The notes under the pieces are model-generated. The model saw only the letters and a list, made by a program, of their open reading frames with translations, was not told where the DNA came from and did no database searches. A DNA stretch of 32,000 nt from Gaiellaceae bacterium (GTDB lineage Bacteria; Actinomycetota; Thermoleophilia; Gaiellales; Gaiellaceae). Positions 3,527-26,054 of the stretch are shown here, piece by piece. The stretch is taken from contig DASQWB010000183.1 of assembly GCA_035640455.1 (NCBI GenBank), positions 5,510-37,509 on the forward strand, given 5' to 3'. The translations under genes were made by a program, and so were the position numbers. Position 1 is the first letter of the stretch. Each line of letters starts with the position of its first letter.

Positions 3527-5124
3527 CCGCGGCGCTCGCGCTCGGCGGGCACTCCGCCGCCGCGCATCCGTTCTCGGCGCACGGGATCTCGGGCGCCCTC
3601 CCACCCGGCTGGCGCGTCCTGCACCGGCGCTTCACGCCCTGCACCGACCCGCAGGAGGTGCTCGCGGTCTCGTCGTTCCCGGTTGCGAAGCGCGCGCGGA
3701 TGGACCCGCACGGCGCCTTCCTGCTCCTCGAGGAGCGGCACGGCTCGACCGACGGGCTGCCGCCGCGGCCGGCGCGCTTCTCGCTCGCCGACCCTCCGCA
3801 GGCGCTCACCTGCTGCGAGCCCTTCGCCGGCGCTCCCGGCTGGAGCGTGCGCTTCCAGGCCGCCGGTCGCGGCTTCTATGGGTACGCGTACGTCGGAGCG
3901 AACGCGAGCTCGCGACTGCGTGGCGAGCTCCTCGGGGTCCTCGACGGCCTCCGCTTCGCCGACCACCGGTCGCGCTCGCTCGGCCTGCCGTGGGCGGGCC
4001 GGCTGGTCGGCGGCGTCCAGCTCCCGGCGGCCGGGCGGCACTTCTTCACCTGGGACCCGGTCCTGCGCCGGAAGCCCGATCGCGACTGGCGGCGCTACGG
4101 GAATGCGCGCGTCGTCCGGACGGTCCTGCGCGTCGTCGACGCCTACGCGGCCTCACACCCGCACGCGGCGCGGCTCGGGATCGGCGACCTGAGCCGACCG
4201 CACGGCGGTGACTTCGGCCCGCGGTTCGGCGGGCTCGGGCACGTCTCGCACCAGAACGGGCTCGACGTGGACGTCTACTACCCGCGCCGCGACGGTCGCG
4301 AGGCGGCGCCGACGCGCCCAGCGCAGATCGACCACGCCCTGGCGCAGGATCTCGTCGACCGCTTCGTCCGGGCCGGCGCGGTGCGCGTCTTCGTCGGCCC
4401 CTCGACCGGGCTGACCGGCCCGCGCCGCGTCGTCTCCGTTCTCGCGCACCACGACAACCACCTGCACGCGCGCTTCGCCGTCCGGTCGGTTCGGCGGACC
4501 GTCTTCCTCGGCCGCTCCGTCCGCGGCGTCCCGATCTCGGCGCTCGAGCGCGGCGACCCAGGGAGCTCGCGGAAGGTGCTCGTCGTCGGCTGCATCCACG
4601 GCAACGAGTGCGCGGGGCTCGCGGTCGTCCGGCTCCTGGCCCGGGCGCGCTTGCGCGGCGACGTCGACCTCTGGCTCCTGCCGAACCTCAACCCCGACGG
4701 CTACGCGGCCGGCACGCGGCAGAACGCGCACGGCGTCGACCTCAACCGCAACTTCCCCGCGATGTGGAAGCGGACCGGCCGGCGCGGGAGCCTCCAGTGG
4801 TCGGGGCCGCGGCCGCTCTCGGAGCCCGAGTCGCAGATCGCCCGCCGGCTGATCCTCCGGCTGCGGCCCGCGCTGACGCTCTGGTTCCACCAGCCGCAGG
4901 CGCTCGTCCGCGCCTGGGGGCCGAGCATCCCCGCGGCGCGACGCTACGCCCGGCTCGCCGGCGTGCCCTTTCGCGCCCTCGCCTGGCCGAACGGGACGGT
5001 CTCGAACTGGCAGAACCACCTCGATCCGCGCGCCGCGTCGTTCGTCGTCGAGCTGCCGGGCGGGCCGCTCACGCCCTCCGCGGCGAAGCCTTACGCCGAC
5101 GCCCTGCTCCGCCTGGCGCAGTAG
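3508..5124 (+). CDS. secreted multidomain peptidoglycan peptidase: unknown N-domain + LAS/M74 MepA-like endopeptidase + M14 MpaA-like carboxypeptidase/amidase
   Basis: A signal-like sequence (M)LHLVLAAALALGGHSAAA starts at GTG 3508. LAS zinc motifs are HVSHQNGLDVD (4240-4272) and HHDNHLH (4447-4467). M14 motifs are HGNE (4597-4608), LPNLNPDG and VDLNRNF. The start is uncertain; CTG 3505 and ATG 3400 are alternatives. Confidence 0.8.
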   Translation: MLHLVLAAALALGGHSAAAHPFSAHGISGALPPGWRVLHRRFTPCTDPQEVLAVSSFPVAKRARMDPHGAFLLLEERHGSTDGLPPRPARFSLADPPQALTCCEPFAGAPGWSVRFQAAGRGFYGYAYVGANASSRLRGELLGVLDGLRFADHRSRSLGLPWAGRLVGGVQLPAAGRHFFTWDPVLRRKPDRDWRRYGNARVVRTVLRVVDAYAASHPHAARLGIGDLSRPHGGDFGPRFGGLGHVSHQNGLDVDVYYPRRDGREAAPTRPAQIDHALAQDLVDRFVRAGAVRVFVGPSTGLTGPRRVVSVLAHHDNHLHARFAVRSVRRTVFLGRSVRGVPISALERGDPGSSRKVLVVGCIHGNECAGLAVVRLLARARLRGDVDLWLLPNLNPDGYAAGTRQNAHGVDLNRNFPAMWKRTGRRGSLQWSGPRPLSEPESQIARRLILRLRPALTLWFHQPQALVRAWGPSIPAARRYARLAGVPFRALAWPNGTVSNWQNHLDPRAASFVVELPGGPLTPSAAKPYADALLRLAQ

Positions 5125-5133
5125 GGTCCCGCC

Positions 5134-5592
5134 ATGCTGCAGGCAGGCGACCGCGTGCCGGAGGCAACGGTGTGGCTCGCGCCGCGCGAGCCGCTCACCA
5201 TCGGTGAGCTCGCCGCCGACGTGCCGATCCTCCTTTTCTTCTACCTCTTCGACTGGTCGTCGACCTGAACGAACGAGATGGAGCTCCTGCGTGACAGGAG
5301 CGAGCAGTTCGCGGAGGCGGGCGTCCACCCATATGGCATCTCCCGCGACTCGCCGTGGACGCACATCGCGTGGATGCAGGCGCTCGACCTGAACTTCCCG
5401 CTCCTCTCGGACTGGAACGCCGAGGCGGTGCAGGCCTTCGGGATCGCGCACGAGTTCCGCGGCATGCACGACGTCGCCGAGCGGACGGCGTTCCTCGTCG
5501 ACCCCGGCGGTACGGTCCGCCGCGCATGGAGCTACGGGACGGACCAGGTGCCCGACTTCGACGAGCTGCTCGCGGCCGCGCAGCCTACGTAG
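5134..5592 (+). CDS. AhpE-like 1-Cys peroxiredoxin with in-frame UGA (probable selenocysteine) at the peroxidatic position
   Basis: Translation from ATG 5134 gives MLQAGDRVPEATVWLAPREPLTIGELAADVPILLFFYLFDWSST-[TGA 5266-5268]-TNEMELLRDRSEQF.... This continues in the same frame into the 5278..5592 ORF. Remembered against M. tuberculosis AhpE (VLLVFFPLAFTGICQGELDQLRD), the TGA sits exactly where the catalytic Cys is. Downstream Prx blocks are present (FPLLSDW, and the conserved Arg in ERTAFLVDPGG). There is no Cys anywhere in the 152-codon product. Confidence 0.65.
5270..5311 (+). other. SECIS-like two-part RNA stem-loop immediately 3' of the in-frame UGA
   Basis: The lower stem is CGAAC (5270-5274) paired with GTTCG (5307-5311). 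The upper stem is GCTCCTG (5283-5289) paired with CAGGAGC (5295-5301). The 5-nt apical loop CGUGA (5290-5294) contains GU and begins 21 nt after the UGA. This geometry is comparable to bacterial SECIS elements. Confidence 0.5.
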
Positions 5593-7142
5593 CGCTCGCC
5601 TGCGCCCTCTACCTCGGAGCCGGCGTCGCGGCGACGTGGCCGGCCGTCCAACACGCGGGCTCGGAGTTCATGGCCGGCGGAGCTCCCGGTCACGGCGAGG
5701 CGGCGCCGGGCGACCACCTGCAGACGCTCTACCACCTCTGGCTCGTCGGCCACCAGCTCGACCACGGCCACGCGCCCTGGCGCGACCCGTACAGCTTCCG
5801 GCCCGAGGCGAAGCCGACGCTCAACTTCGCCGGCTGGCCGCTCGGGTTCGCGTTCTGGCCTTTGGACGCGGCATTGGGCGCCGTTCGCGGCTGGAACGCC
5901 TTCGTGCTCTTGACGTACCTCGGCGCCGGCGGGCTCGCCTGCCTCTGGCTCCGCGAGCTCGGGCTGCCGCGGGGGGCGGCGCTCGCGGGCGGCCTCGCGT
6001 TCGCGATCGCGCCTTACCGCGTGGGGCAGAGCGTCGGCCACCTGCTTGGGCCGATCTCGATCCTGCTCCCGCTCGCGCTCTACGCGCTCGAGCGGCGGTG
6101 GCTCGTCGTCGCGGTCGCTGCCGTCGTCTCGATTCCCCTGTCGGGTCAGGTGCACCTGGCCCTGGGAGCCGTGCCCTTCTTCTGCGCGTACGCCCTCGTC
6201 CGGCGCCGGGATCTGCGGACGTGGGTGACCGTGGAAGCGGCCGTCGCTTTGGCGGTCGCCGCGGGCTTCCTCGTCAAGACGACGACGATCGACCGCTCGC
6301 ACCTGGCAGGAGGACGGTCGCTGCACGCCGTCTCGCAGTACTCCGCCGGCTGGGGCGACTTCGTCGACCGCCACAAGGGCCATCAGGCCGAGCAGTTCGT
6401 GTTCCTCGGCTGGGCCACGCCCGTGCTGGCCGTGGTCGGGCTCGTGCTGCTGTGGCGCGGGAGGCGCGGCCTGGCGGCGGTGCTCGGCCTCGGCGCCGTC
6501 GTGCCGATCCTGCTCGCGCTGGGGACATCGACGCCGCTCTACTCGGGCCTGTGGCACGCGCTGCCGCCGTTCCGCTACCCACGAGTGCCGGAGCGGCTCA
6601 TGCCGATCGCGTGCCTCTGCCTCGCGGGGCTCGTTGCGTTCGCCGTCGCGCGTTCGCGGCGCGCGGTCGTCGTGCCGGCGTTGGCGGTCGCGCTGCTCCT
6701 CGTCGACCTGCACGTGCGGGTCTACGGCGCGTCGGCTGCGGACGCGGGCAATCGCGCCTATGCGGCGCTCCGCGAGGCGCCGCCCGGCCGCATGCTCGAG
6801 CTGCCGGTCTTCATGCCCGACCTCCACTACGGGAGCGTCTACATGTACTACGACATGCAGGCGCGGCGCGAGCGGCCGGCCGGGTACTCCACCATTGCGC
6901 CGCGGGCCGCGTACGACCTCCTGCGGACGCTGCTGCCCGTGAACTGCGGCCGCTTCGACGCCGCGCAGCTCGCGACGCTTCGCCGGCTCGGCGTCCGCTA
7001 CGTCGCCGTCCACCGCGCGCTCTTCCGCTACCGGCGGGTCGAGGGCCAGCCGTGCACGCCGCCGCCCGCGCGACGGCTTCGCTCGTTCCGTGTGCTCGCG
7101 TCGGACGGCGAGGTCACGATCTTCGACCTCGCCGCGTTCTAG
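5526..7142 (+). CDS. polytopic integral membrane protein, possible GT-C-type glycosyl/arabinosyl-transferase-like protein
   Basis: At least 10 hydrophobic segments are visible. The first extracytoplasmic loop carries GDHLQTLYHLWLVGHQL, and a soluble C-terminal domain follows. ATG 5526 gives a positively charged N-terminus before TM1 but overlaps the Prx gene by 67 nt. The family assignment is weak. Confidence 0.65.
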   Translation: MELRDGPGARLRRAARGRAAYVALACALYLGAGVAATWPAVQHAGSEFMAGGAPGHGEAAPGDHLQTLYHLWLVGHQLDHGHAPWRDPYSFRPEAKPTLNFAGWPLGFAFWPLDAALGAVRGWNAFVLLTYLGAGGLACLWLRELGLPRGAALAGGLAFAIAPYRVGQSVGHLLGPISILLPLALYALERRWLVVAVAAVVSIPLSGQVHLALGAVPFFCAYALVRRRDLRTWVTVEAAVALAVAAGFLVKTTTIDRSHLAGGRSLHAVSQYSAGWGDFVDRHKGHQAEQFVFLGWATPVLAVVGLVLLWRGRRGLAAVLGLGAVVPILLALGTSTPLYSGLWHALPPFRYPRVPERLMPIACLCLAGLVAFAVARSRRAVVVPALAVALLLVDLHVRVYGASAADAGNRAYAALREAPPGRMLELPVFMPDLHYGSVYMYYDMQARRERPAGYSTIAPRAAYDLLRTLLPVNCGRFDAAQLATLRRLGVRYVAVHRALFRYRRVEGQPCTPPPARRLRSFRVLASDGEVTIFDLAAF

Positions 7143-7162: not shown

Positions 7163-9880
7163 ATGACGCACCGCGTGACCCTGACCGGCCTGCTCGTCGG
7201 ACGCGATGAGGAGCTCGACCGCATCGACCGCCTCGTCGGCGACCTCGACGCGCTGCCCGCGGCGCTCGTCCTGGAGGGAGAGGCCGGAATCGGAAAGACG
7301 ACGATCTGGGAGGCGGGAATCACCGCCGCCGAGGGCGCTGGATTCCGCGTCCTCCGTGCCACGCCCTCCGAAGCCGAGGCCTCTCTGGCCTTCGCAGCCG
7401 CCGCAGATCTCCTTGCGCCGATCGCGGACGAGGCGACCGCAGGCTTGCCGGACGTCCAGCGACGGGCGCTCGCCGCCGCCCTCCTCCTGGAGTCGAATGA
7501 CGTCGCTGCAGATCGCCGGGCGGTCGCGACGGCGTTCCTCGGAGCGCTGCGCCGCCTCGCCGCGTCACGACCCGTCTTCGTCGGGCTCGACGACGTGCAG
7601 TGGCTCGACGCGGAGTCGGCGCTGCTGCTGAGCTTCGCCGCGCGGCGCCTTACGTCGGAGCGGATCGGCTTCCTGCTCGCGCACCGCGCCGGAGAAGCTG
7701 GGCCGCGCCTCGAACTCGGCCCGAACGAGCAGCGCGTCGCGATCGGGCCGCTGTCGCTCGGCGCGCTCCACCGTTTGCTCCACGACCGCCTCGGCGAGCC
7801 CCTCCCGCGGCCGCTGCTCCGCCGCATCCACGACGTCTCGGGCGGCAATCCGTTTTTCGCGCACGAGCTGGCGTCGGTCGCGAAGGGCGCGACCGGGCAC
7901 GACCTCCCGTTGCCGGCGACACTCGAGCCGCTCGTCGAGGCGCGCCTGCGAGGCCTCCCGCCGCGGACGCGCGCCGTGCTGGCCGAGCTCGCCGCCAGCA
8001 CGAGCCCCGAGTCTGCGGACCCAGACGAGGAGGCGATCGCCCCGGCCCTCGCCGCCGGCGTCGTGCGGACAGGACGCGAAGGGCTCGAGTTCACCCACCC
8101 GCTGCTTCGCGCGGCCGCGTACGAGCAGCTGACGCCGGCTCGGCGCCGTGAGCTCCACCGGCGACTGGCCGAGACCGCTGCAGACGCGGAACAGAAGGCG
8201 CACCACCTCTCGCGCGCGGTCGACGACCCGGACGAGTCCGTCGCGGCGGCGATCGCCGAGGGGGCGGAGCGCGCTCGCCGCCGGGGCGCGCCGGCCGTCG
8301 CGGCCGAGCTCCTCGACCACGCAGCCCGCGTCACGGAGGATCCCGAGCGCCGGGTCCGGCGCACGCAGCAGGCCGCAGTCTGGAAGGGCGAGGCCGGAGA
8401 CACGGTGGGCCAGCGCGCGGCGCTCGAGGCCCTGCTCCGCGAACTCGCCCCCGGACCGGCACGCGCGCAGGTGCTCGCCGTCCTCGCGGACGACGCCGGC
8501 CTCGAGGTCGGCCGCGCCGCGGAGGTCGCCCGCGAAGGGCTTGCCCAGCCGGGACTCGACGCCGCGGCGCGAGGGTGGCTCCTACTCGCGCTGAGCGACA
8601 ACGTGTTCCTCCAGAACGACCTCCGCGCGAGCGCAGCGTACGCGCGTGAGGCGCTCCCGCTCGTCGAGCCGGCCGGCAACGCCCAGCTGCTCGCCCGCGC
8701 GCTGGCCTGGAACGGCCAGCTCGCGAGCCTCACTGCGAGCGGCGACGCCGCGAGCTTCTTCGAGCGCGCACGCGAGGTCGAGCAGCAGCTCGAAGCACTC
8801 GACCCTTGGCGAGCTGCCGGCCATTGGCAGGGAGTCAGCCTGATGTGGGCCGACCGCCCGAGTGAGGGCCGCCCGTTGCTCGAGGAGCAGCACGAGCGCG
8901 CCGAGGAGCTCGGAAACGAGTTCGCGCGGAGCGCCCTCTGCTTCCACCTCACGCAGCTCGAGTGCCGCGCCGGCGAGCTTGCACGCGCGAGCCGCTACGC
9001 GCGCGAGGGCCACGAGCTCGCGAGCCTCGGCGGCAACGACCAGCTCGTCGGGATCCTGCTCAACGCACGTGCCCTCGCCGCAGCGCACGAAGGCGACGCA
9101 GCCGCGGCGCGGGCGTTCGCGGACGAGGCCGTGGCCGTGACGGCGGGTGCGGGCGACGCGTTCTTCGCGATCCACCACCGCGTCGTGCTCGGGTTCCTCG
9201 AGACGTCTCTCGGTGACTACCCGGCGGCGGGGCGACACCTGGAGGGACTCTCGCAGCTACTCGACGAGATGGGCGTCCGCGAGCCGGGCATCTTCCCGTT
9301 CCACGGTGACGCCGTCGAGGCCGCGGTCGCCCTCGGCGACCACGAGGACGCTCGGCGCCTGATTGCCGACCTCGAGGCGCGAGGGCGTGAGCTTGCACGC
9401 CCGCGCCTGCTCGCGCTCGCCTGGCGAGGCCGCGGGATGCTGCACGCGGCGGCGGGCGAGGCCGCCGGGGCGGACGACGCATTCGCGAACGCGGTGGCGG
9501 AGCACGAGCGGCTCGAGCTTCCGCTCGAGCGCGCGCGAACGCTCCTCGCCAACGGCGTGGCGCTGCGACGAGCGCGGCAGAAGCGATCGGCGCGCGCGGC
9601 CCTGGAGGAAGCAGAGGCGACCTTCGAGGCCCTGGGCGCACGGCTCTGGGCCGAGCGAGCGCGGAGCGAGCTCGCCCGCGTCGGCGGTCGCGCGCCGTCA
9701 CGCGGCGCGCTGACGCCGACCGAGCAGCGGGTGGCCGGGCTCGCCGCCGCCGGCAAGGCGAACAAGGAGATCGCGACCGAGCTCTACGTCACCGTGCGGA
9801 CCGTCGAGACGCACCTGACGAAGATCTACGAGAAGCTCGGCGTGCGCGGCCGCGCCGAGCTCCCGCGCCGCCTCTCGTAG
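7163..9880 (+). CDS. LAL-type (large ATP-binding LuxR family) transcriptional regulator: AAA/P-loop NTPase + TPR-like region + LuxR HTH
   Basis: ATG 7163 is preceded by GAGGTG. Walker A reads EGEAGIGKTT, and Walker B-like reads VFVGLDDVQWLD. A long helical repeat region follows. The C-terminal sequence LTPTEQRVAGLAAAGKANKEIATELYVTVRTVETHLTKIYEKLGV is a LuxR/GerE HTH. Confidence 0.9.
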   Translation: MTHRVTLTGLLVGRDEELDRIDRLVGDLDALPAALVLEGEAGIGKTTIWEAGITAAEGAGFRVLRATPSEAEASLAFAAAADLLAPIADEATAGLPDVQRRALAAALLLESNDVAADRRAVATAFLGALRRLAASRPVFVGLDDVQWLDAESALLLSFAARRLTSERIGFLLAHRAGEAGPRLELGPNEQRVAIGPLSLGALHRLLHDRLGEPLPRPLLRRIHDVSGGNPFFAHELASVAKGATGHDLPLPATLEPLVEARLRGLPPRTRAVLAELAASTSPESADPDEEAIAPALAAGVVRTGREGLEFTHPLLRAAAYEQLTPARRRELHRRLAETAADAEQKAHHLSRAVDDPDESVAAAIAEGAERARRRGAPAVAAELLDHAARVTEDPERRVRRTQQAAVWKGEAGDTVGQRAALEALLRELAPGPARAQVLAVLADDAGLEVGRAAEVAREGLAQPGLDAAARGWLLLALSDNVFLQNDLRASAAYAREALPLVEPAGNAQLLARALAWNGQLASLTASGDAASFFERAREVEQQLEALDPWRAAGHWQGVSLMWADRPSEGRPLLEEQHERAEELGNEFARSALCFHLTQLECRAGELARASRYAREGHELASLGGNDQLVGILLNARALAAAHEGDAAAARAFADEAVAVTAGAGDAFFAIHHRVVLGFLETSLGDYPAAGRHLEGLSQLLDEMGVREPGIFPFHGDAVEAAVALGDHEDARRLIADLEARGRELARPRLLALAWRGRGMLHAAAGEAAGADDAFANAVAEHERLELPLERARTLLANGVALRRARQKRSARAALEEAEATFEALGARLWAERARSELARVGGRAPSRGALTPTEQRVAGLAAAGKANKEIATELYVTVRTVETHLTKIYEKLGVRGRAELPRRLS

Positions 9881-9960
9881 CGTCAAAGATCGTGGGTCTC
9901 CGGGATTTCTCTTCCGCGTGCCTCGCCGTACCGTCGGCAGCCTCAACGAAGGGAGGAGAA

Positions 9961-10266
9961 ATGAAGAAGCACCTTCGCCTGCTCGCCGTCGTGTTCGCTT
10001 TGGGCGCGCTCGCGGGACCGGCCGCGGCCGACAACTCCACGAGCAGCTTCGCGACGAACGACAGCGGGTGTCTCGGCGGGCTGCGCAGCGCGATCGCGCG
10101 CGGCGACCTCGCCGGCGTGGCGCTGCCCGATGGGTTCGTCGTACCCGCGGGGTTCGGCGCGGAGTTCAATCCCGGCGGCCACCTCGGAACCGTCGGCGAG
10201 GCGGCGTTCCTGCAGTCGCACGGCGTCACCGACCTCGACGCGTTCTGCGCGCTCTTCGTCAAGTAG
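9961..10266 (+). CDS. small secreted protein of unknown function (101 aa, two Cys)
   Basis: ATG 9961 lies behind a strong SD (GGGAGGAG, 9951-9958). The Sec signal peptide is MKKHLRLLAVVFALGALAGPAAA. The mature part of about 78 aa has Cys in SGCLGG and DAFCALF. No family was recognised. Confidence 0.65.
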   Translation: MKKHLRLLAVVFALGALAGPAAADNSTSSFATNDSGCLGGLRSAIARGDLAGVALPDGFVVPAGFGAEFNPGGHLGTVGEAAFLQSHGVTDLDAFCALFVK

Positions 10267-10272
10267 TCCGAG

Positions 10273-10536
10273 GTGGAGCAGTACCTCGTCGAGCTCTACT
10301 TGCCACGGCGTGACGAGGCGGCGCTGGCGGACGCAGCAGTGCGCGCCCGCGCCGCCTCCGAGCAGCTCACGAGCGAAGGCAGGCAGGGCCGGTACCTGCG
10401 GACGATCTTCGTCCCCCAGGACGAGATCTGCTTCCACCTCTACGAGGCGCAGGCGGCGGACGTGGTCGGCGAGGCGAGCCGCCGCGCGCAGATCGCCTAC
10501 GAGCGGATCGTTCGCGCGGTAAGCGTCGAGCGATAG
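10273..10536 (+). CDS. small conserved hypothetical protein, DUF4242-like
   Basis: The pattern (M)EQYLVELYLPR...RYLRTIFVPQDEICFHLYEA resembles the YMVERYLP...RYLRS.FVPE.E.CFCLFEA pattern I associate with DUF4242 proteins. The start is GTG, 6 nt after the preceding stop. The assignment is from memory only. Confidence 0.55.
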   Translation: MEQYLVELYLPRRDEAALADAAVRARAASEQLTSEGRQGRYLRTIFVPQDEICFHLYEAQAADVVGEASRRAQIAYERIVRAVSVER

Positions 10537-12081: not shown

Positions 12082-13017
12082 CTAGTAGTCGAACTTAAGG
12101 CGGCCGCTGATCTCTCTGACGGTCGCCTCGTGCTGGCGACGGGCCTCGACTTGCCGCTCGCCCTGCGCGCGAAGCCGACGCTCGTGCTCGGCAATCTCCT
12201 CGTTCACCTTCTCGAGCACGTACCGCAGCGTCTCGACGTGATAGCGCTCAAGCTCCTCCATCGTGGTGCCGTCGAGGATGATGGTGTCGCCAGAGACAGA
12301 GGCAATGCCGGGGCGGTGCATCGTCGTCCATCGCGGCGGGTGATTCCATGTTTCGACGAAGCGCCGCGCCCAAAGCGGGTGGGGTCGTCGCGAGAGCCGC
12401 AGCGGGATGCGGTACAGGGCGCTTCCTGCGCTTCCGTCATTCCGCGGTTGACCCACACCCTCCTCCACGATGCCCGTGATCCTGATGGGCTCGTAGTCAG
12501 CCGTGAGAGGCGCAGATGCGGCTGGCGGCAGCGTGGATGTACCGGACGATGGTCGCCTCGCCGCTCGCTCCGCTTCCCGGCGCTTCGCCGCGCGCTCCCG
12601 CTGCTCAGCCTGGTGCTGGGGGATCGCGGCGGCGATCTTGTCCGCGACCTCATCGATGTTCGCCTCGTCCAGCGAGAGGTAGAGCACATCGGCCAGTGCG
12701 TCGGGCATCTCGGCACCGGCAACGCGAACGGGAAGCACCCGCACGCCCTCGCGGCCCAGCTCACCGGTGACGGCGAGCGCGAGTTCCTTCCGACACCAGT
12801 TCGACTTCCGCGATGCCTCGCTGACCAGAGCGAGGAAGAAATCGATTTCGGCGATTGCCGTCGCGATTCGCTCGATGAGGGAGTCTCCGACTTTGAGCTC
12901 GCCCTCATCGATCCAGACGCGGAGGCCGCGAGCGTCGAGCGCTGCAGCGAGCGCACGGGCGAGATCCTTGTCCTCGTGGGAGTAGGAGATGAAGATCGAG
13001 GCCTGTGAACCGGTCAC
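12082..13017 (-). CDS. TIR-domain protein (N-terminal TIR, predicted NADase) fused to an uncharacterised C-terminal domain
   Basis: The sequence (M)TGSQASIFISYSHEDKDLARALAAALDARGLRVWIDEGELKVGDSLIERIATAIAEIDFFLALVSEASRKSNWCRKELALAV is a canonical bacterial TIR pattern. It includes the conserved WCxxE glutamate (E78, codon 12784-12786). A charged/Pro-Ala linker spans aa 131-172. The C-terminal domain (aa 173-311) has a terminal coiled-coil-like stretch, and no family was recognised. The start is GTG. GC is markedly lower than in the flanks. Confidence 0.85.
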   Translation of the reverse strand: MTGSQASIFISYSHEDKDLARALAAALDARGLRVWIDEGELKVGDSLIERIATAIAEIDFFLALVSEASRKSNWCRKELALAVTGELGREGVRVLPVRVAGAEMPDALADVLYLSLDEANIDEVADKIAAAIPQHQAEQRERAAKRREAERAARRPSSGTSTLPPAASAPLTADYEPIRITGIVEEGVGQPRNDGSAGSALYRIPLRLSRRPHPLWARRFVETWNHPPRWTTMHRPGIASVSGDTIILDGTTMEELERYHVETLRYVLEKVNEEIAEHERRLRAQGERQVEARRQHEATVREISGRLKFDY

Positions 13018-23492: not shown

Positions 23493-24396
23493 ACGGACGG
23501 AAGTTTCGCGCCAGCTCGGAGACGTACCTCCGTCCGAGCGTGTCGCCGTTCCGCTCGAGCCACTCGCGGAAGCTCGCGCGGCCGCGCGGCGGCTCGGCCG
23601 AGACGAGCAGGCTCGCCTGGAGACCGGCAGCCTCGTCCGCGGTCAGGAGGACGTCATGCTGTGCCAGGCCGACTGCCTTCCCGAGCGTGAGCGCGAGGCG
23701 CGGAGGCATGTGCACTAGTGCACGGGGACGGCCGACGGCTGCGGCGACGAGGCGGACGAGCTCGTCGAAGGTGTACGTCTCGGGCCCGGCCGCGTCGACC
23801 GTGCCGGTGGCGCTCACGGCGATCTCGGCAACGTCCTCCGCGGACACGGGCTGGACGCGGCCGCTCCCGTCGCCGGGGACGACGAACACCGGGAACCGGC
23901 GCAGGAGCCACGCGATGTTGTTCACGAGGATGTCCCGCGGCCCGAAGACGAGCGTCGGCCGGACGATCGCATACGCCACGCCGCAGGCGGCGAGCTCGCG
24001 CTCGACGAGCGCCTTGCCCCGGAAGTATCGGAGCGGCGAGTGGAGCGACGCGTTCGTCACGCTCACGTGCACGATCCGCTCGACCCCGGCCTCGGCCGCC
24101 GCCGCGAAGAGGACGGCGCTGTTCCGAACCGCGCGCTCGAAGGTCGTCTCGCTGCGCTCGAAGCGCACCCAGTAGGTGTTGTAGAGGCAGCGGGCGCCGC
24201 GCAGGCTCGCTACGAGCCGAGCGCGTTCAGTGAACTGGAGCGGCGCCGCTTCGACCTTTCCGTGCAGCGGGCTCGACGGATCGTCGCGGCGCGTCAGCGT
24301 CCGGACGCGGATGCCCTCCGCCAGCAGCCGCCGCGCGATGAAGCTGCCGGTGTAGGAGAACGCGCCGGTGACGACGTCGAGGTCAGGCGAGGGCAC
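23479..24396 (-). CDS. NAD(P)-binding epimerase/dehydratase (NmrA / complex-I 39 kDa-like) family protein
   Basis: The sequence VVTGAFSYTGSFIARRLLAEG is a Rossmann GxxGxxG variant, followed by HVS...YFRGK. GTG 24396 was chosen as start because the ORF N-terminus upstream of it is Arg/Cys-rich junk. Confidence 0.8.
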   Translation of the reverse strand: MPSPDLDVVTGAFSYTGSFIARRLLAEGIRVRTLTRRDDPSSPLHGKVEAAPLQFTERARLVASLRGARCLYNTYWVRFERSETTFERAVRNSAVLFAAAAEAGVERIVHVSVTNASLHSPLRYFRGKALVERELAACGVAYAIVRPTLVFGPRDILVNNIAWLLRRFPVFVVPGDGSGRVQPVSAEDVAEIAVSATGTVDAAGPETYTFDELVRLVAAAVGRPRALVHMPPRLALTLGKAVGLAQHDVLLTADEAAGLQASLLVSAEPPRGRASFREWLERNGDTLGRRYVSELARNFRPYAPL

Positions 24397-25702
24397 GAGG
24401 CAGCAGCGCCACGACGTCGCTCGCAACGAGACCCGCCTGCTGCGGGGCAAGCCGCGCCGCCCGCGCCTGCGCGACCGCCCCGGCGGCCGCGGCGAGCTGC
24501 GCCTCGAGTCCCTTGGCGAGGAAGGCCGCGACGATGCCGGTGAGGACGTCGCCCGTCCCCGCGGTCGCCAGGCCCGGCGCGTTCGCCGACCGGACGAGGA
24601 CGCCGGCTCCCGGCGCGCCCACCAGCGTGTCGGCGCCCTTCAGCAACACCACGCAGCCGAAGCGCTCGACGCCTCGCCGGATCGCCTCGAGCCGGTGGGT
24701 AGCCACCCACCGCGACTCCTCCCCGAGCAGCCGCGCGAGCTCCCCCTCGTGCGGGGTCAGGACAGTGGGCGCATCCCGCGTGAACGGCTGGAGCTCGTGC
24801 AGCCCGTCCGCGTCGACCACCGCCGGCAGCGACGACTCCGAGAGCAGCCGCCGCACGAGCGCCCGCTGCTCCTCCCCGCGCCCGAGCCCGGGCCCGAGCG
24901 CGAGCGCGTCCATGCGCGGCAGCAGCTCGTCGACCTCGTCGATCGGCCGCTTCACCGCCTCGAGCAGGCGCTGCTCCACGACCGGGAGCGAGCGCTCCGG
25001 GACGGCAACCGCGACGTAGCCGGCGTCCGCGCGGAACGCCGCCTCGGCGGCGAGGCAGGCCGCGCCGGTCAGCCCCGGCGCGCCGCCAACGACGAGCACT
25101 GCGCCGGCCGAGTACTTGTTGTCGCCCTCGCGGCGACGCGGCACGCGCGCGAGGACATCGCCCGTCACGAGCCGGTGCTCGGTCTCCGCGCGCTCGAGGC
25201 CGATCTCGACGACGTCGACCTCGCCGGCGTGGAATCGCCCCGGCGCGACGACGAGCCCGACCTTCGGGGCGTGCATGGTGACAGTCACCGCGGCGCGCAC
25301 CGCCGCGCCCGCGACCTCCCCGGTCGAGGCGTTTACGCCCGACGGCACGTCGACCGCCACGACCGGCGCGCCCGCGCCGTTCATCCGCCGGATCAGCTCG
25401 GCCGCATCCGCCCGCGGCTCGCCCCGAAACCCGGTGCCGAAGAGCGCGTCGACGACGACGTCGGCGCCCTCCCCGAGCTCCTCGACCGCGTCCCGACCTG
25501 CCTCCCGCAGCACCCGGGCCGCGATGCGCCCGTCGCCGCCGTTCGCGCCCCGGCCGCAGACGCAGGCGACCCGCCGCGCCTCCGGGAAGCGGCGCAGGAC
25601 CGCCTCCGCGACTCCGCGCCCCGCCCGCTCCATCATCGCCTCGACGTCGTGGCCGGCCTCGGCGGCGCGCATCTCGTCCGCGGTGTAGAGCGGCTCAAGC
25701 AT
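24383..25702 (-). CDS. nnr: bifunctional NAD(P)H-hydrate repair enzyme (epimerase + ADP-dependent dehydratase)
   Basis: The N-terminal YjeF_N domain has GRGANGGDG and DALFGTG. The C-terminal carbohydrate-kinase-like domain has NKYSAGAVLVVGG, TPHEGE and ATAGTGDVLTG. Confidence 0.9.
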   Translation of the reverse strand: MLEPLYTADEMRAAEAGHDVEAMMERAGRGVAEAVLRRFPEARRVACVCGRGANGGDGRIAARVLREAGRDAVEELGEGADVVVDALFGTGFRGEPRADAAELIRRMNGAGAPVVAVDVPSGVNASTGEVAGAAVRAAVTVTMHAPKVGLVVAPGRFHAGEVDVVEIGLERAETEHRLVTGDVLARVPRRREGDNKYSAGAVLVVGGAPGLTGAACLAAEAAFRADAGYVAVAVPERSLPVVEQRLLEAVKRPIDEVDELLPRMDALALGPGLGRGEEQRALVRRLLSESSLPAVVDADGLHELQPFTRDAPTVLTPHEGELARLLGEESRWVATHRLEAIRRGVERFGCVVLLKGADTLVGAPGAGVLVRSANAPGLATAGTGDVLTGIVAAFLAKGLEAQLAAAAGAVAQARAARLAPQQAGLVASDVVALLPRALA

Positions 25703-26054
25703 CGGAGACGAGGCAGATCGCGGCGGCGAGCTCGCGCGAGTGCGTCATCGAGAGGTCGATCCGGCCGGCGCGGCTCCGCTCCGCATACGCCTTCGTCCGC
25801 CCGGAGAGGCGGACGCCGGGCTTCGGCCGGCCGACGATCTCGATCTCCTTCCACGTGAAGCGGACGCCGATGCCGAGCGCCTTCCCCACCGCCTCCTTGC
25901 CGGCGAAGCGGCCCGCGTAGCTCTCGGCCGGGTTCGGCCGCGAGTCGCAGTACTCGCGCTCGGCGGCCGTGAAGCAGCGCTCGCGAAAGCCCGGATAGCG
26001 CTCGAGCGCACGGCGAATGCGCCCGATCTCGATCAGATCCAAGCCGACGCGCAC
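25695..26054 (-). CDS. acpS: holo-[acyl-carrier-protein] synthase (4'-phosphopantetheinyl transferase)
   Basis: The sequence reads (M)RVGLDLIEIGRIRRAL......FT..E..YC......ESYAGRFAGKEAVGKALG. GTG 26054 shares one nt with the TAG of the upstream HAD gene (GTAGTG). Confidence 0.9.
   Translation of the reverse strand: MRVGLDLIEIGRIRRALERYPGFRERCFTAAEREYCDSRPNPAESYAGRFAGKEAVGKALGIGVRFTWKEIEIVGRPKPGVRLSGRTKAYAERSRAGRIDLSMTHSRELAAAICLVSDA

What the first reader, a model, noticed from the sequence alone, without database searches (positions are those of the whole stretch)
12082..13017. Stand-alone TIR-domain protein with an unrecognised C-terminal domain: candidate novel NADase immune effector
- The first 125 aa or so are an unmistakable bacterial TIR domain: IFISYSHEDK...VWIDEGELKVGDSL...FFLALVSEASRKSNWCRKELALAV.
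- The WCxxE glutamate is retained (E78, codon 12784-12786). In characterised TIR NADases (SARM1, AbTir, ThsB-type) it is catalytic.
- A charged/Pro-Ala linker (aa 131-172) joins the TIR domain to a C-terminal module of about 140 aa: ...ALYRIPLRLSRRPHPLWARRFVETWNHPPRWTTMHRPGIASVSGDTIILDG..., ending in a heptad-like helix. I cannot assign this module to any known sensor or partner domain (not SAVED, STING, APAZ, SLOG, NB-ARC or a cNMP-binding domain).
- None of the usual partners is adjacent: no ThsA, pAgo, cyclase, CD-NTase or reverse transcriptase.

A one-gene TIR plus novel-domain architecture inside a compositional islet is the kind of configuration in which new anti-phage systems have been found.
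Basis: partly seen in the sequence, partly recalled or inferred. Interest (0 to 1): 0.8.

Follow-up and report, generated by a model that had tools for sequence, protein, structure and literature searches.

The report
One-gene TIR protein, unnamed sensor-like domain
This soil-bacterium gene encodes a probable NAD-destroying anti-virus protein (a TIR enzyme domain) tethered to a widespread, strongly conserved but so far unnamed tail domain, making it a new variant of a known one-gene bacterial immune design rather than a wholly new system.

Summary
The ORF at 12082-13017 (-) is real and intact (311 aa). Residues 7-120 are a canonical TIR domain, closest to the AbTir/BtTir/PdTIR/BtpA NADases. 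The S-x-W-C-x-x-E motif, including E78, is invariant in 100 homologs. Residues 180-311 (the CTD) match nothing in Pfam, NCBIfam, PADLOC, PHROGs, PDB sequences, or Foldseek against PDB and BFVD, although the AlphaFold model is confident (pLDDT 92.7).

The CTD is a mobile module found in 471 clusters at 50% identity and 208 species across more than 12 phyla. It sits almost always at the C-terminus, behind SEFIR-type or TIR domains and rarely SIR2, kinase, EAD7 or AbiJ_NTD3. In five lineages it is split from an adjacent stand-alone SEFIR gene.

No partner gene recurs across 60 lineages. Contexts vary: housekeeping genes here, but next to SPARTA, restriction systems, AbiG, integrative elements and on 52 Enterococcus plasmids elsewhere.

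The SEFIR head of relatives is 41% identical to that of validated bSEFIR, a one-protein NAD+ depleter, but bSEFIR's tail is unrelated. At least one SEFIR-CTD gene is probably already listed as a bSEFIR homolog.

Best reading: a one-gene NAD+-depleting defence protein whose CTD is the sensor or assembly switch. This is a new variant of a known kind. The function is inferred, not shown.

The parts
12082..13017 (-). Complete gene (GTG start, 311 codons plus stop) for the TIR-CTD protein
   Evidence: ORF listed. An identical protein (P0001) is annotated as a Gaiellaceae MAG TIR-domain protein. GC3 is 0.79 against 0.91-0.97 in the neighbours.
12658..12999 (-). TIR domain, aa 7-120
   Evidence: Pfam TIR_2 E=3.3e-28. 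PDB sequence hits to BtTir 7uxr (2.5e-14), AbTir, BtpA and PdTIR. Foldseek TM about 0.7 to the same structures. Secondary structure from AF2.
12784..12804 (-). S72-N-W74-C75-R-K-E78 motif. E78 (12784-12786) is the predicted catalytic glutamate.
   Evidence: E78 aligns to the Glu of the W-x-x-(Y/K)-E-L motif in solved bacterial TIR NADases. S72, W74, C75 and E78 are invariant in 100 homologs.
12556..12657 (-). Long charged helix extending from the last TIR helix, aa 121-154
   Evidence: AF2 full-length model, helix H121-154, pLDDT 90-98.
12481..12555 (-). Disordered Pro/Ser/Ala-rich tether, aa 155-179
   Evidence: pLDDT below 50 for residues 160-171 and no secondary structure. The columns are poorly conserved.
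12202..12480 (-). CTD globular core, aa 180-272. Topology is beta-beta-alpha-beta-beta followed by the start of the long helix. Carries the motifs PRNDG-x3-GSALY, W216, W224, PP, TTMHRPGIA, LDGTT-x-EE, YH260-x2-TL and N272.
   Evidence: AF2 model pLDDT 92.7, pTM 0.80. Invariant residues from alignments A2 and A4. 471 representative clusters carry it.
12310..12318 (-). Invariant H234-R235-P236 motif in the loop before the beta3-beta4 hairpin of the CTD
   Evidence: H70, R71 and P72 in CTD numbering are invariant in 36 diverse members. H234 and R235 are at least 90% conserved in 100 full-length homologs.
12133..12201 (-). Charged spacer helix of fixed length, aa 273-295
   Evidence: 52% charged residues, 11% strong hydrophobics, mean top-residue frequency 0.33. 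The N272-to-H296 spacing is 24 residues in 35 of 36 sequences.
12085..12132 (-). Conserved amphipathic C-terminal motif, aa 296-311: H296-x3-V300-x5-R306-[IL]-x-F309-[DE]
   Evidence: H296 97%, V300 92%, F309 97% and R306 78% conserved. The CTD ends within 12 aa of the protein C-terminus in 127 of 150 representatives.

Best explanation
The gene encodes a self-contained, one-polypeptide, abortive-infection-type immune protein that destroys NAD+.

The N-terminal TIR domain (aa 7-120) is the enzyme, with E78 as the catalytic residue. A helix plus a disordered tether (aa 121-179) links it to a C-terminal module of about 130 aa (the CTD). The CTD keeps the TIR domain inactive until a trigger is sensed. 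On sensing, CTD-driven self-association brings TIR domains together and forms the composite active site that TIR NADases need. NAD+ is then cleaved to ADP-ribose, possibly with a cyclic-ADPR isomer, plus nicotinamide. The infected cell stops growing and the phage cannot replicate.

The CTD has three parts: a compact beta-beta-alpha-beta-beta-alpha core with an invariant polar cluster (D194, S199, H234, R235, E255, H260, N272), a charged helix of fixed length that acts as a spacer, and a conserved amphipathic tail that probably docks on another protomer.

Shown here:
- domain identities and conservation of the catalytic motif;
- the CTD being swapped behind different NADase heads, and split into a separate adjacent gene;
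- absence of any conserved partner gene;
- patchy, mobile distribution, with defence neighbours in a subset of lineages.

Inferred:
- NADase activity;
- anti-phage function;
- the sensor/switch role of the CTD;
- activation by oligomerisation.
For: TIR half:
- It is closest to the proven NAD+-cleaving TIRs BtTir, AbTir, PdTIR and BtpA, by sequence (E down to 2.5e-14) and by fold (TM about 0.7).
- Its best defence-model hits are effector-type TIRs: PDC-S66, TIR-SAVED and retron-TIR.
- E78, S72, W74 and C75 are invariant in 100 homologs.

The CTD behaves as a constant C-terminal module behind interchangeable heads:
- Of 150 representative clusters, 65 are SEFIR-type+CTD, 28 TIR+CTD, 41 CTD-only and 16 other. 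The CTD is C-terminal in 127 of 150.
- Rare heads are SIR2_2, Pkinase (PD-T4-6-like), EAD7 and AbiJ_NTD3.
- In five lineages a stand-alone SEFIR gene lies next to a stand-alone CTD gene, in either order.

Single-gene unit: no other neighbour recurs across 60 lineages.

Link to a validated system:
- The SEFIR head of relatives is 41% identical to that of validated bSEFIR.
- bSEFIR is described in the literature as a single-protein system that depletes NAD+ through its N-terminal SEFIR domain.

Accessory and mobile behaviour:
- 208 of 185,579 species representatives carry it, across more than 12 phyla, at 43-68% CTD identity among the 80 loci kept.
- It is on 55 plasmids, 52 of them Enterococcus.
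- One copy lies next to an integrative element with integrase, RepSA and FtsK.
- Here its GC3 is lower than that of all neighbours.

Defence neighbours elsewhere:
- SPARTA (TIR-APAZ plus short pAgo) two genes away in L009.
- Type ISP/IIG restriction enzymes, Mrr, Schlafen/AlbA_2, PCTIR and PbeA.
- Vsr, Dcm, GIY-YIG and a second TIR gene.
- AbiGi/AbiGii and Fic on an E. faecalis plasmid.
Against: - There is no experimental evidence for this protein or any CTD-bearing relative.
- In this window every identifiable neighbour is a housekeeping gene.
- Other lineages also show housekeeping neighbours such as Hsp70 and a tRNA synthetase. I could not compute a genome-wide defence score with a background.
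- The CTD is unusually conserved for a phage-protein sensor (43-68% identity across phyla, 16 invariant residues). That fits a small-molecule or nucleic-acid sensor, an enzyme, or a purely structural oligomerisation domain better than a fast-evolving recognition domain.
- EAD7-CTD and AbiJ_NTD3-CTD fusions place the CTD where effectors often sit.
- The closest solved TIR relatives (BtpA/TcpB, AbTir) come from pathogens and are not established phage-defence proteins.
Confidence: 0.55

Rival explanations
1. The CTD is itself an effector or enzyme, for example a small nuclease or nucleotide-modifying domain. The TIR/SEFIR head would then serve mainly as an assembly or signal-generating domain, giving a two-effector or TIR-regulated toxin.
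For: - The CTD has 16 invariant residues in 36 diverse members, including H234, R235, E255 and N272 plus near-invariant D194 and H260, which looks like an active or binding site.
- It is fused behind EAD7 (effector-associated domain 7) and AbiJ_NTD3, positions that in known systems are often occupied by effectors.
- It exists as a stand-alone protein of about 140 aa in 41 of 150 clusters.
Against: - It has no detectable similarity to any enzyme family by sequence or fold.
- The one enzyme lead, pterin-4a-carbinolamine dehydratase with its HHP motif, was rejected (hhalign probability 0.1).
- The usual heads (TIR, SEFIR, SIR2) are themselves complete effectors with a conserved catalytic Glu.
- Stand-alone CTD genes recur next to a stand-alone SEFIR gene in five lineages.
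Confidence: 0.15
2. This is Thoeris-like signalling. After the CTD senses infection, the TIR domain makes a cyclic-ADPR-type second messenger that activates an effector encoded elsewhere in the genome.
For: - The closest solved relatives are AbTir and BtTir. From my own knowledge, these make cyclic-ADPR isomers.
- There is a marginal Pfam ThsB_TIR hit (21.3 bits against a cutoff of 21.2).
- There are PADLOC ThsB hits over the TIR region.
Against: - There is no ThsA-like gene or other partner in the window.
- No gene recurs next to the fused form across 60 lineages.
- The gene travels alone on plasmids and integrative elements. A split signalling pair would not be expected to keep working after such transfer.
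Confidence: 0.1
3. The role is not in phage defence. The protein could be an NAD+-linked stress, dormancy or plasmid-maintenance switch, or a TIR protein aimed at other cells, as with BtpA/TcpB.
For: - The context in this window is housekeeping.
- The fabI-like upstream neighbour is kept in the 84%-identical orthologue.
- Many copies are on Enterococcus plasmids next to recombinases, which would also fit addiction or stability functions.
- The closest solved TIRs include virulence-associated BtpA/TcpB.
Against: - It is present in only about 0.1% of species representatives, scattered over more than 12 phyla, which does not fit a core physiological function.
- No secretion-related domain was detected.
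- Neighbours in several lineages are bona fide defence systems.
- The SEFIR head of relatives is close to that of validated bSEFIR.
Confidence: 0.15
4. The gene is a decaying or non-functional remnant of horizontal transfer.
For: GC3 is lower than in all neighbours. No recognisable promoter or terminator was found, but the scan expects almost none by chance in this region and does not cover non-sigma-70-type promoters.
Against: - The frame is intact.
- All family-invariant residues are present in both domains.
- The identical protein was recovered from several independent assemblies.
Confidence: 0.03

Closest known systems
bSEFIR (Millman et al. 2022; Bacillus sp. NIO-1130, 468 aa)
   Same: - The design is the same: one gene, an N-terminal TIR-superfamily NADase head and a C-terminal non-catalytic region.
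- The SEFIR head of the CTD family's majority branch is 41% identical to that of bSEFIR, including the following K-P-A-L-G linker.
- 80 of 105 CTD-bearing proteins hit the PADLOC bSEFIR model, with a best E of 8.6e-74.
- The Nitrosospira sp. NpAV SEFIR-CTD gene appears in their homolog list.
   Different: - The window protein has a canonical TIR head, not SEFIR. It has no Pfam SEFIR hit, and its PADLOC bSEFIR hit is only 41 bits over profile positions 38-103 of 412.
- The roughly 300-aa region after the SEFIR domain of bSEFIR is unrelated to the CTD (hhalign probability 0.4).
- CTD-family proteins match only profile positions 29-203 of 412 (shown for P0121).
AbTir / BtTir / PdTIR / BtpA (TcpB) bacterial TIR NADases
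   Same: - These are the closest TIR sequences and structures: E from 2.5e-14 to 1e-8, 27-32% identity, TM about 0.7.
- They share the W-x-x-x-E-L catalytic motif.
   Different: - From my own knowledge, those proteins carry the TIR domain at the C-terminus after a coiled-coil or lipid-binding N-terminal region. Here the TIR domain is N-terminal and followed by the CTD.
- None of them has the CTD. All structural hits align only about 135-147 columns.
Sensor-fused TIR effectors: TIR-SAVED (CBASS), TIR-STING, TIR-APAZ (SPARTA), PycTIR, Cat1
   Same: - A TIR NADase is fused to a regulatory or sensor domain that controls activity through oligomerisation.
- The TIR regions hit each other.
   Different: - All of these need a partner: a cyclase, a pAgo or CRISPR. 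No partner is present here or recurs across 60 lineages.
- The CTD is not SAVED, STING, APAZ, a cNMP-binding domain or CARF. There are no Pfam or PADLOC hits, and no fold match even though several of these complexes are in the PDB.
Thoeris ThsB
   Same: A short TIR-domain protein. There are PADLOC ThsB hits over the TIR region and a borderline Pfam ThsB_TIR hit.
   Different: There is no ThsA or other effector gene nearby, and ThsB models do not cover the CTD.
DCoH-like fold / RBP11-RpoL dimerisation modules
   Same: - The secondary-structure order is the same (beta2-alpha-beta2-long alpha).
- Four of the top ten Foldseek PDB hits are RpoL/Rpb11/AC19 subunits.
- Two Rpb3/11-like hits appear in BFVD.
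   Different: - The matches are not significant (E at least 0.37, TM 0.26-0.46).
- No sequence relationship was found. The only DCoH-like member tested, pterin-4a-carbinolamine dehydratase (PCD), gave hhalign probability 0.1.
- This is a topological resemblance only.

Membership tests
TIR domain superfamily (Pfam clan CL0173; TIR_2 PF13676) | Profile match above the curated threshold | tested here: met
   TIR_2 scores 99 bits against a cutoff of 28 over aa 8-119. PF01582 scores 34.6 bits against 21.3.
TIR domain superfamily (Pfam clan CL0173; TIR_2 PF13676) | Flavodoxin-like alpha/beta TIR fold | tested here: met
   AF2 model. Foldseek probability 1.00 and TM about 0.7 to BtTir, AbTir, BtpA and PdTIR.
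Catalytically competent TIR NADases | Conserved catalytic glutamate in the W-x-x-x-E motif | tested here: met
   E78 aligns with the motif Glu in five solved bacterial TIRs and is invariant in 100 homologs.
Catalytically competent TIR NADases | Measured NAD+ cleavage | not testable with these tools
   Needs a biochemical assay.
bSEFIR | N-terminal SEFIR domain with the SEFIR match stronger than the TIR match (rule from Millman et al. methods) | tested here: not met
   The window protein has no Pfam SEFIR hit, while TIR_2 scores 3.3e-28. The PADLOC bSEFIR hit is 41 bits over 66 of 412 profile positions.
bSEFIR | C-terminal region homologous to that of the validated protein | tested here: not met
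   hhalign of the CTD profile against the 399 residues shown of the 468-aa validated bSEFIR gives probability 0.4.
bSEFIR | Single-gene system | tested here: met
   No partner recurs across 60 lineages.
bSEFIR | Phage defence with NAD+ depletion | not testable with these tools
   Known only for the Bacillus protein, from the literature.
Thoeris (ThsB + ThsA) | Adjacent ThsA-type effector (SIR2, Macro or SLOG/TM) | tested here: not met
   None in the window. No recurrent neighbour.
SPARTA / short pAgo (TIR-APAZ + pAgo) | APAZ domain and an adjacent short pAgo gene | tested here: not met
   PADLOC Aga_TIR hits cover only the TIR region. There is no pAgo in the window. In L009 the SPARTA pair forms a separate, complete neighbouring system.
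CBASS / Pycsar TIR effectors | SAVED, STING or cNMP-binding sensor domain plus a cyclase gene | tested here: not met
   Only the TIR region matches. No sensor domain. No cyclase among the neighbours.
TIR/SEFIR-CTD family (defined here) | C-terminal CTD with the motifs PRNDG..GSALY, TTMHRPGIA, LDGTT.EE, YH..TL and N, a 24-residue spacer and the H...V.....R[IL].F[DE] tail | tested here: met
   The window sequence is the first row of alignments A2 and A4 and carries all invariant residues.
TIR/SEFIR-CTD family (defined here) | N-terminal TIR-superfamily head joined to the CTD by a variable linker | tested here: met
   The window protein aligns end to end with the Enterococcus plasmid SEFIR-CTD protein (35% identity, E=4e-54).

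The most novel reading that the evidence does not exclude
The CTD is a previously undescribed class of immune sensor/switch domain. On this reading, a compact core with an invariant His-Arg-Pro/Glu/His/Asn pocket detects a conserved infection cue, more likely a small molecule or nucleic-acid feature than a variable phage protein. A rigid charged helix of fixed length, ending in a docking tail, converts that binding into a defined oligomer geometry that switches on whichever NADase head is attached (TIR, SEFIR or SIR2). The TIR/SEFIR-CTD proteins would then be a distinct defence family, separate from bSEFIR in how they sense infection, and present on enterococcal conjugative plasmids.
Probability: 0.35. 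Interest if true: 0.7.

Novelty: new variant of a known kind. Interest (0 to 1): 0.52.

Why it matters
One-gene NAD+-depleting defence proteins are known, for example bSEFIR and DSR1/2. What each of them senses is mostly unknown.

This work isolates a compact, highly conserved, unannotated domain of about 130 aa with these properties:
- It recurs behind several different NADase heads.
- It can be split off as its own gene.
- It is found in more than 12 phyla, including gut Collinsella and 52 Enterococcus plasmids.
- It has a confident predicted fold with no recognisable relative.

Its small size and strong conservation make it an unusually tractable case for finding a new infection cue and a new way of switching TIR enzymes on.

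It also shows that proteins currently grouped as 'bSEFIR homologs' include at least two unrelated C-terminal domains. They therefore probably respond to different triggers.

Tried and rejected
1. PCD/DCoH homology. The topology, the RpoL/Rpb11 Foldseek ranks and an HRP-versus-HHP motif suggested it. Only a weak fold-class resemblance remains.

2. A beta-beta-alpha-metal (HNH-like) nuclease reading of the 239-251 hairpin plus helix. It is not pursued beyond rival 1.

3. Conserved downstream partner. The unannotated genes after the homologs in L001 and L003 are unrelated to each other and to the window's HTH gene.

4. Empty-site test for insertion between fabI and the HTH gene. A metagenome scan with the HTH protein found only relatives of 59% identity or less, none with shared synteny. 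The test is inconclusive.

5. The 1224-aa 'Aldedh-SEFIR-CTD' protein in L056 is an artefact of my longest-ORF caller and was discarded.

6. Promoter and terminator scan: nothing found. The scan expects almost none by chance here and does not cover non-sigma-70-type promoters, so it is uninformative.

7. Weak family hits judged meaningless:
- Ig_RIMBP2 in 5 of 36 members (E at least 0.005) and phrog_33214 in 7 of 36 (E at least 0.0025).
- The ProQ NCBIfam hit at aa 246-296 (E 0.0058).
- JGI names such as 'sRNA-binding protein' and 'phage-related minor tail protein', which I attribute to the charged helix.

8. Literature searches for 'bSEFIR', for WP_002415121 and for Enterococcus plus SEFIR found no paper on this architecture.
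Full report
OBSERVATION. An identical protein (P0001) is on record from several soil-metagenome assemblies and is named only 'TIR domain-containing protein [Gaiellaceae bacterium]'. The window is about 73% GC. The gene is 66.2% GC with GC3 of 0.79, while its neighbours have GC3 of 0.91-0.97. The 'compositional islet' is therefore real but modest.

THE TIR HALF. Pfam TIR_2 matches aa 8-119 at E=3.3e-28.
- The closest solved proteins by sequence are BtTir (7uxr, 2.5e-14), AbTir (8g83, 7uwg), BtpA/TcpB (4c7m, 4lzp, 4lqc) and PdTIR (3h16), followed by Cat1, TIR-STING and Roq1.
- The full-length AlphaFold model (pLDDT 87.9) gives the same ranking by fold, with TM about 0.7. Every hit aligns only about 135-147 columns, which is the TIR domain alone.
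- E78 (codon 12784-12786) aligns with the Glu of the W-x-x-(Y/K)-E-L motif in each printed alignment.
- Across 100 full-length homologs of 48-85% identity, S72, W74, C75 and E78 are invariant.
- That this Glu is catalytic in AbTir and SARM1 is established knowledge, not something I tested.

THE C-TERMINAL MODULE (CTD).
- Unassigned everywhere. Residues from about 165 to 311 hit nothing in Pfam, NCBIfam or PADLOC. Scanning all 36 aligned members individually against Pfam and PHROGs gave nothing consistent. A profile search of PDB sequences gave nothing.
- Structure. With a 36-sequence alignment, AlphaFold gives a confident model (pLDDT 92.7, pTM 0.80). It shows strands at 16-19 and 38-44, a helix at 50-61, a hairpin at 75-78 and 81-87, and then one 54-residue helix. 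These numbers are CTD numbering; add 164 for protein numbering.
- No structural relative. Foldseek finds no significant match in PDB (best E 0.37) or BFVD (best E 0.039).
- A weak fold resemblance. Several top-ranked hits are RpoL/Rpb11/AC19 subunits. From my own knowledge these share the DCoH-like beta2-alpha-beta2-alpha topology. The scores are not significant, and a test against pterin-4a-carbinolamine dehydratase failed.
- Conservation. There are 16 invariant residues in 36 diverse members, including H234-R235-P236, E255 and N272. D194, Y202, W216, W224 and H260 are near-invariant.
- The long helix is not a coiled coil. Residues 273-295 are 52% charged, 11% strongly hydrophobic and poorly conserved. 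Yet the spacing from N272 to H296 is 24 residues in 35 of 36 sequences. The helix ends in a conserved amphipathic tail, H296-x3-V300-x5-R306-[IL]-x-F309-[DE].
- My reading, which is inference: a rigid spacer of set length presents a docking motif, most simply to another protomer.

A MOBILE MODULE, NOT A ONE-OFF.
- An exhaustive phmmer search of 1.84 billion representatives with the CTD alone finds 471 clusters at E below 1e-3 and 107 below 1e-30.
- Of the best 150, 65 are SEFIR-type+CTD, 28 window-type TIR+CTD, 41 CTD-only (some are fragments) and 16 have other N-termini. The CTD ends within 12 residues of the C-terminus in 127 of 150.
- Pfam on 105 fusion proteins gives TIR_2 in 84, SEFIR in 58, and single or double cases of SIR2_2, Pkinase, AbiJ_NTD3, EAD7 and DUF2513. 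EAD7 also appears in the precomputed Pfam for P0131 and P0284.
- PADLOC on the same set adds an Aga-type SIR2 (1.6e-86) and PD-T4-6-like kinase matches.
- These heads all come from the repertoire seen in conflict systems.

FUSION AND FISSION.
- I analysed 80 loci from GTDB species representatives, which collapse to 60 lineages at 75% host-protein identity.
- The only neighbour family that recurs (five lineages: L041, L057, L062, L063, L080) is a stand-alone SEFIR-type protein. It lies directly beside a stand-alone CTD gene on the same strand, in either order.
- This ties the two modules together functionally.
- For the fused form no neighbour recurs, which fits a one-gene unit.

DISTRIBUTION AND CONTEXT.
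- The CTD is encoded in 208 of 185,579 species representatives. These include Actinomycetota, Acidobacteriota, Chloroflexota, Bacteroidota, Pseudomonadota (Nitrosospira, Marinicella), Bacillota (Oribacterium, Peptoniphilus), Cyanobacteria, Verrucomicrobiota, Planctomycetota and many gut Collinsella. CTD identity to the window is 43-68% among the 80 loci kept. This patchy pattern indicates horizontal movement.
- In this window the neighbours are housekeeping: RibD_C, an ArsR/HTH_20 regulator, FabI and an S8 peptidase. Further out are a methyltransferase, a CCA/poly(A) polymerase-family enzyme, alanine racemase, YjeF, a HAD hydrolase and a glycogen-debranching-type enzyme.
- Close orthologues sit elsewhere:
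  - The 84%-identical one keeps a fabI-like gene upstream but has a different gene downstream.
  - A 73% one lies among sugar and ABC-transporter genes.
  - A 72% one abuts an integrative element with NERD, integrase, HTH_17, RepSA and FtsK.
  - Another 72% one lies in a cluster with Vsr, Dcm, GIY-YIG and an integrase fragment, followed by a second TIR gene.
- Among 148 neighbours (plus or minus 2 genes) from 37 lineages are a complete SPARTA pair (TIR-APAZ plus short pAgo, pAgo E=6e-204), three Type ISP/IIG restriction enzymes, Mrr_cat_2, Schlafen/AlbA_2, PCTIR, PbeA and serine recombinases. Hsp70 and a tRNA synthetase are also there.
- 55 plasmids carry the CTD. Of these, 52 are Enterococcus and 50 are predicted conjugative or mobilizable.
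- On E. faecalis plasmid NZ_CP110291.1 the gene order is integrase, Fic, AbiGi, AbiGii, TIR/SEFIR-CTD (WP_002415121.1), recombinase.
- No sequenced phage in INPHARED has the CTD. Only 5 of 2.9 million IMG/VR contigs do.
- I could not compute a defence score against a proper background. The enrichment is therefore suggestive, not established.

RELATION TO bSEFIR.
- The literature describes bSEFIR as a single-protein system that depletes NAD+ through its N-terminal SEFIR domain.
- I recovered the validated Bacillus sp. NIO-1130 sequence from the preprint's supplement. The table gives its length as 468 aa, and 399 residues were shown.
- Its SEFIR domain is 41% identical (E=7e-40) to aa 1-167 of the Enterococcus SEFIR-CTD protein.
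- Its C-terminal region is unrelated to the CTD (hhalign probability 0.4).
- The window protein aligns end to end with the Enterococcus protein (35% identity, E=4e-54), with most of the identity in the CTD.
- Millman's Table S6 lists a gene in Nitrosospira sp. NpAV (contig Ga0077272_1019, + strand) as a bSEFIR homolog. My locus L024 is from that genome, on accession ...019 and the + strand. It contains exactly one SEFIR-type gene, which is SEFIR+CTD. Identity of the two is likely but inferred.
- Their Table S1 also has a SEFIR cluster with a mean length of 290 aa and a defence score of 0.467 (q=1.6e-6). The size fits SEFIR-CTD proteins, but I could not verify membership.
- So the SEFIR-headed branch has probably been counted under bSEFIR, although neither the text nor the supplement passages I read single out its different tail. 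The TIR-headed branch, which includes the window protein, would be excluded by their rule that the SEFIR match must be stronger than the TIR match.

MECHANISM (BEST READING, CONFIDENCE 0.55).
- This is a one-polypeptide NAD+-depleting defence protein. The TIR domain with E78 is the enzyme.
- Residues 121-154 (helix) and 155-179 (disordered) form a flexible tether. The full-length pTM of 0.56 agrees with this.
- The CTD senses the trigger and drives the self-association that TIR NADases need.
- The CTD's strong conservation argues against recognition of a fast-evolving phage protein. It favours a conserved small-molecule or nucleic-acid cue, or a mainly structural switching role.
- The rivals are: the CTD as an effector (0.15), Thoeris-like signalling to an unlinked effector (0.10), a non-defence role (0.15), and a dead gene (0.03).

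NOVELTY AND SCORE.
- The design is known, so I rate this a new variant of a known kind.
- Two things are new. One is the CTD itself, which is widespread, unannotated, confidently folded and without a recognisable relative. The other is the evidence that it is a swappable module behind TIR, SEFIR and other heads.
- Interest is 0.52. It is a solid, testable lead with tractable relatives, but it would not surprise a specialist, and the function is inferred only.

Noticed in passing
window 7163-9880 (+): Gene calls on the matching contig (L005), mapped to window coordinates, place a 905-aa AAA_16 + GerE (LuxR-type) regulator here. My GC3 screen instead picked antisense shadow ORFs at 7565-8581 (-) and 9257-9697 (-), which had no Pfam hits. 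This is a reminder that long antisense ORFs in this 73% GC genome are not genes.
   Followed up: partly
L009:4044-8516: In a Pyrinomonadaceae MAG, a complete SPARTA-type pair lies two genes upstream of a TIR-CTD gene (7536-8516). The pair is TIR-APAZ at 4044-5498 and a short pAgo at 5498-7009, and the two genes overlap. An unannotated 135-aa ORF lies between the pair and the TIR-CTD gene. The result is two different TIR systems side by side.
   Followed up: partly
L141:6001-8197: A 72%-identical TIR-CTD orthologue is followed directly by a second, different TIR-domain gene (370 aa as called). They sit in a cluster with Vsr, a Dcm methylase, GIY-YIG and an integrase fragment. I did not examine whether the two TIR genes cooperate.
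   Followed up: no
L041:9469-10408: In a Cytophagales MAG the CTD is split into two ORFs of 75 and 65 aa (9953-10180 and 10211-10408), next to a stand-alone SEFIR gene (9469-9981). This is a likely frameshift, pseudogene or sequencing error.
   Followed up: no
L142 (E. faecalis plasmid NZ_CP110291.1) 2483-8004: The cluster integrase, Fic, AbiGi, AbiGii, TIR/SEFIR-CTD (WP_002415121.1), recombinase lies about 2 kb from the copper-resistance genes tcrB and tcrZ. The same CTD gene is on 52 Enterococcus plasmids, many from pigs and humans.
   Followed up: partly
P0145, P0164, P0160, P0128: A minority of family members (23 of 150) have extra sequence after the CTD, up to about 300 aa. Examples are P0164 (564 aa, CTD at 116-254) and P0160 (370 aa, CTD at 4-128). 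These extensions were not characterised.
   Followed up: no
P0279 (176 aa): A protein with a GroES (Cpn10) N-terminal fragment joined to a CTD (Pfam Cpn10 7.9e-09). It could be a real fusion or a gene-calling or assembly artefact.
   Followed up: no
window 12085-12300 (aa 246-296 of the protein): The charged helix draws spurious annotations. These include a weak NCBIfam ProQ hit (E 0.0058) and JGI names such as 'sRNA-binding protein' and 'phage-related minor tail protein' for homologs. They should not be read as function.
   Followed up: yes
window 24383-25744 (-): A YjeF-type NAD(P)HX repair enzyme (YjeF_N + Carb_kinase) lies about 11 kb from the TIR gene. It is an NAD-related housekeeping gene, and nothing suggests a link to the TIR protein.
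   Followed up: no
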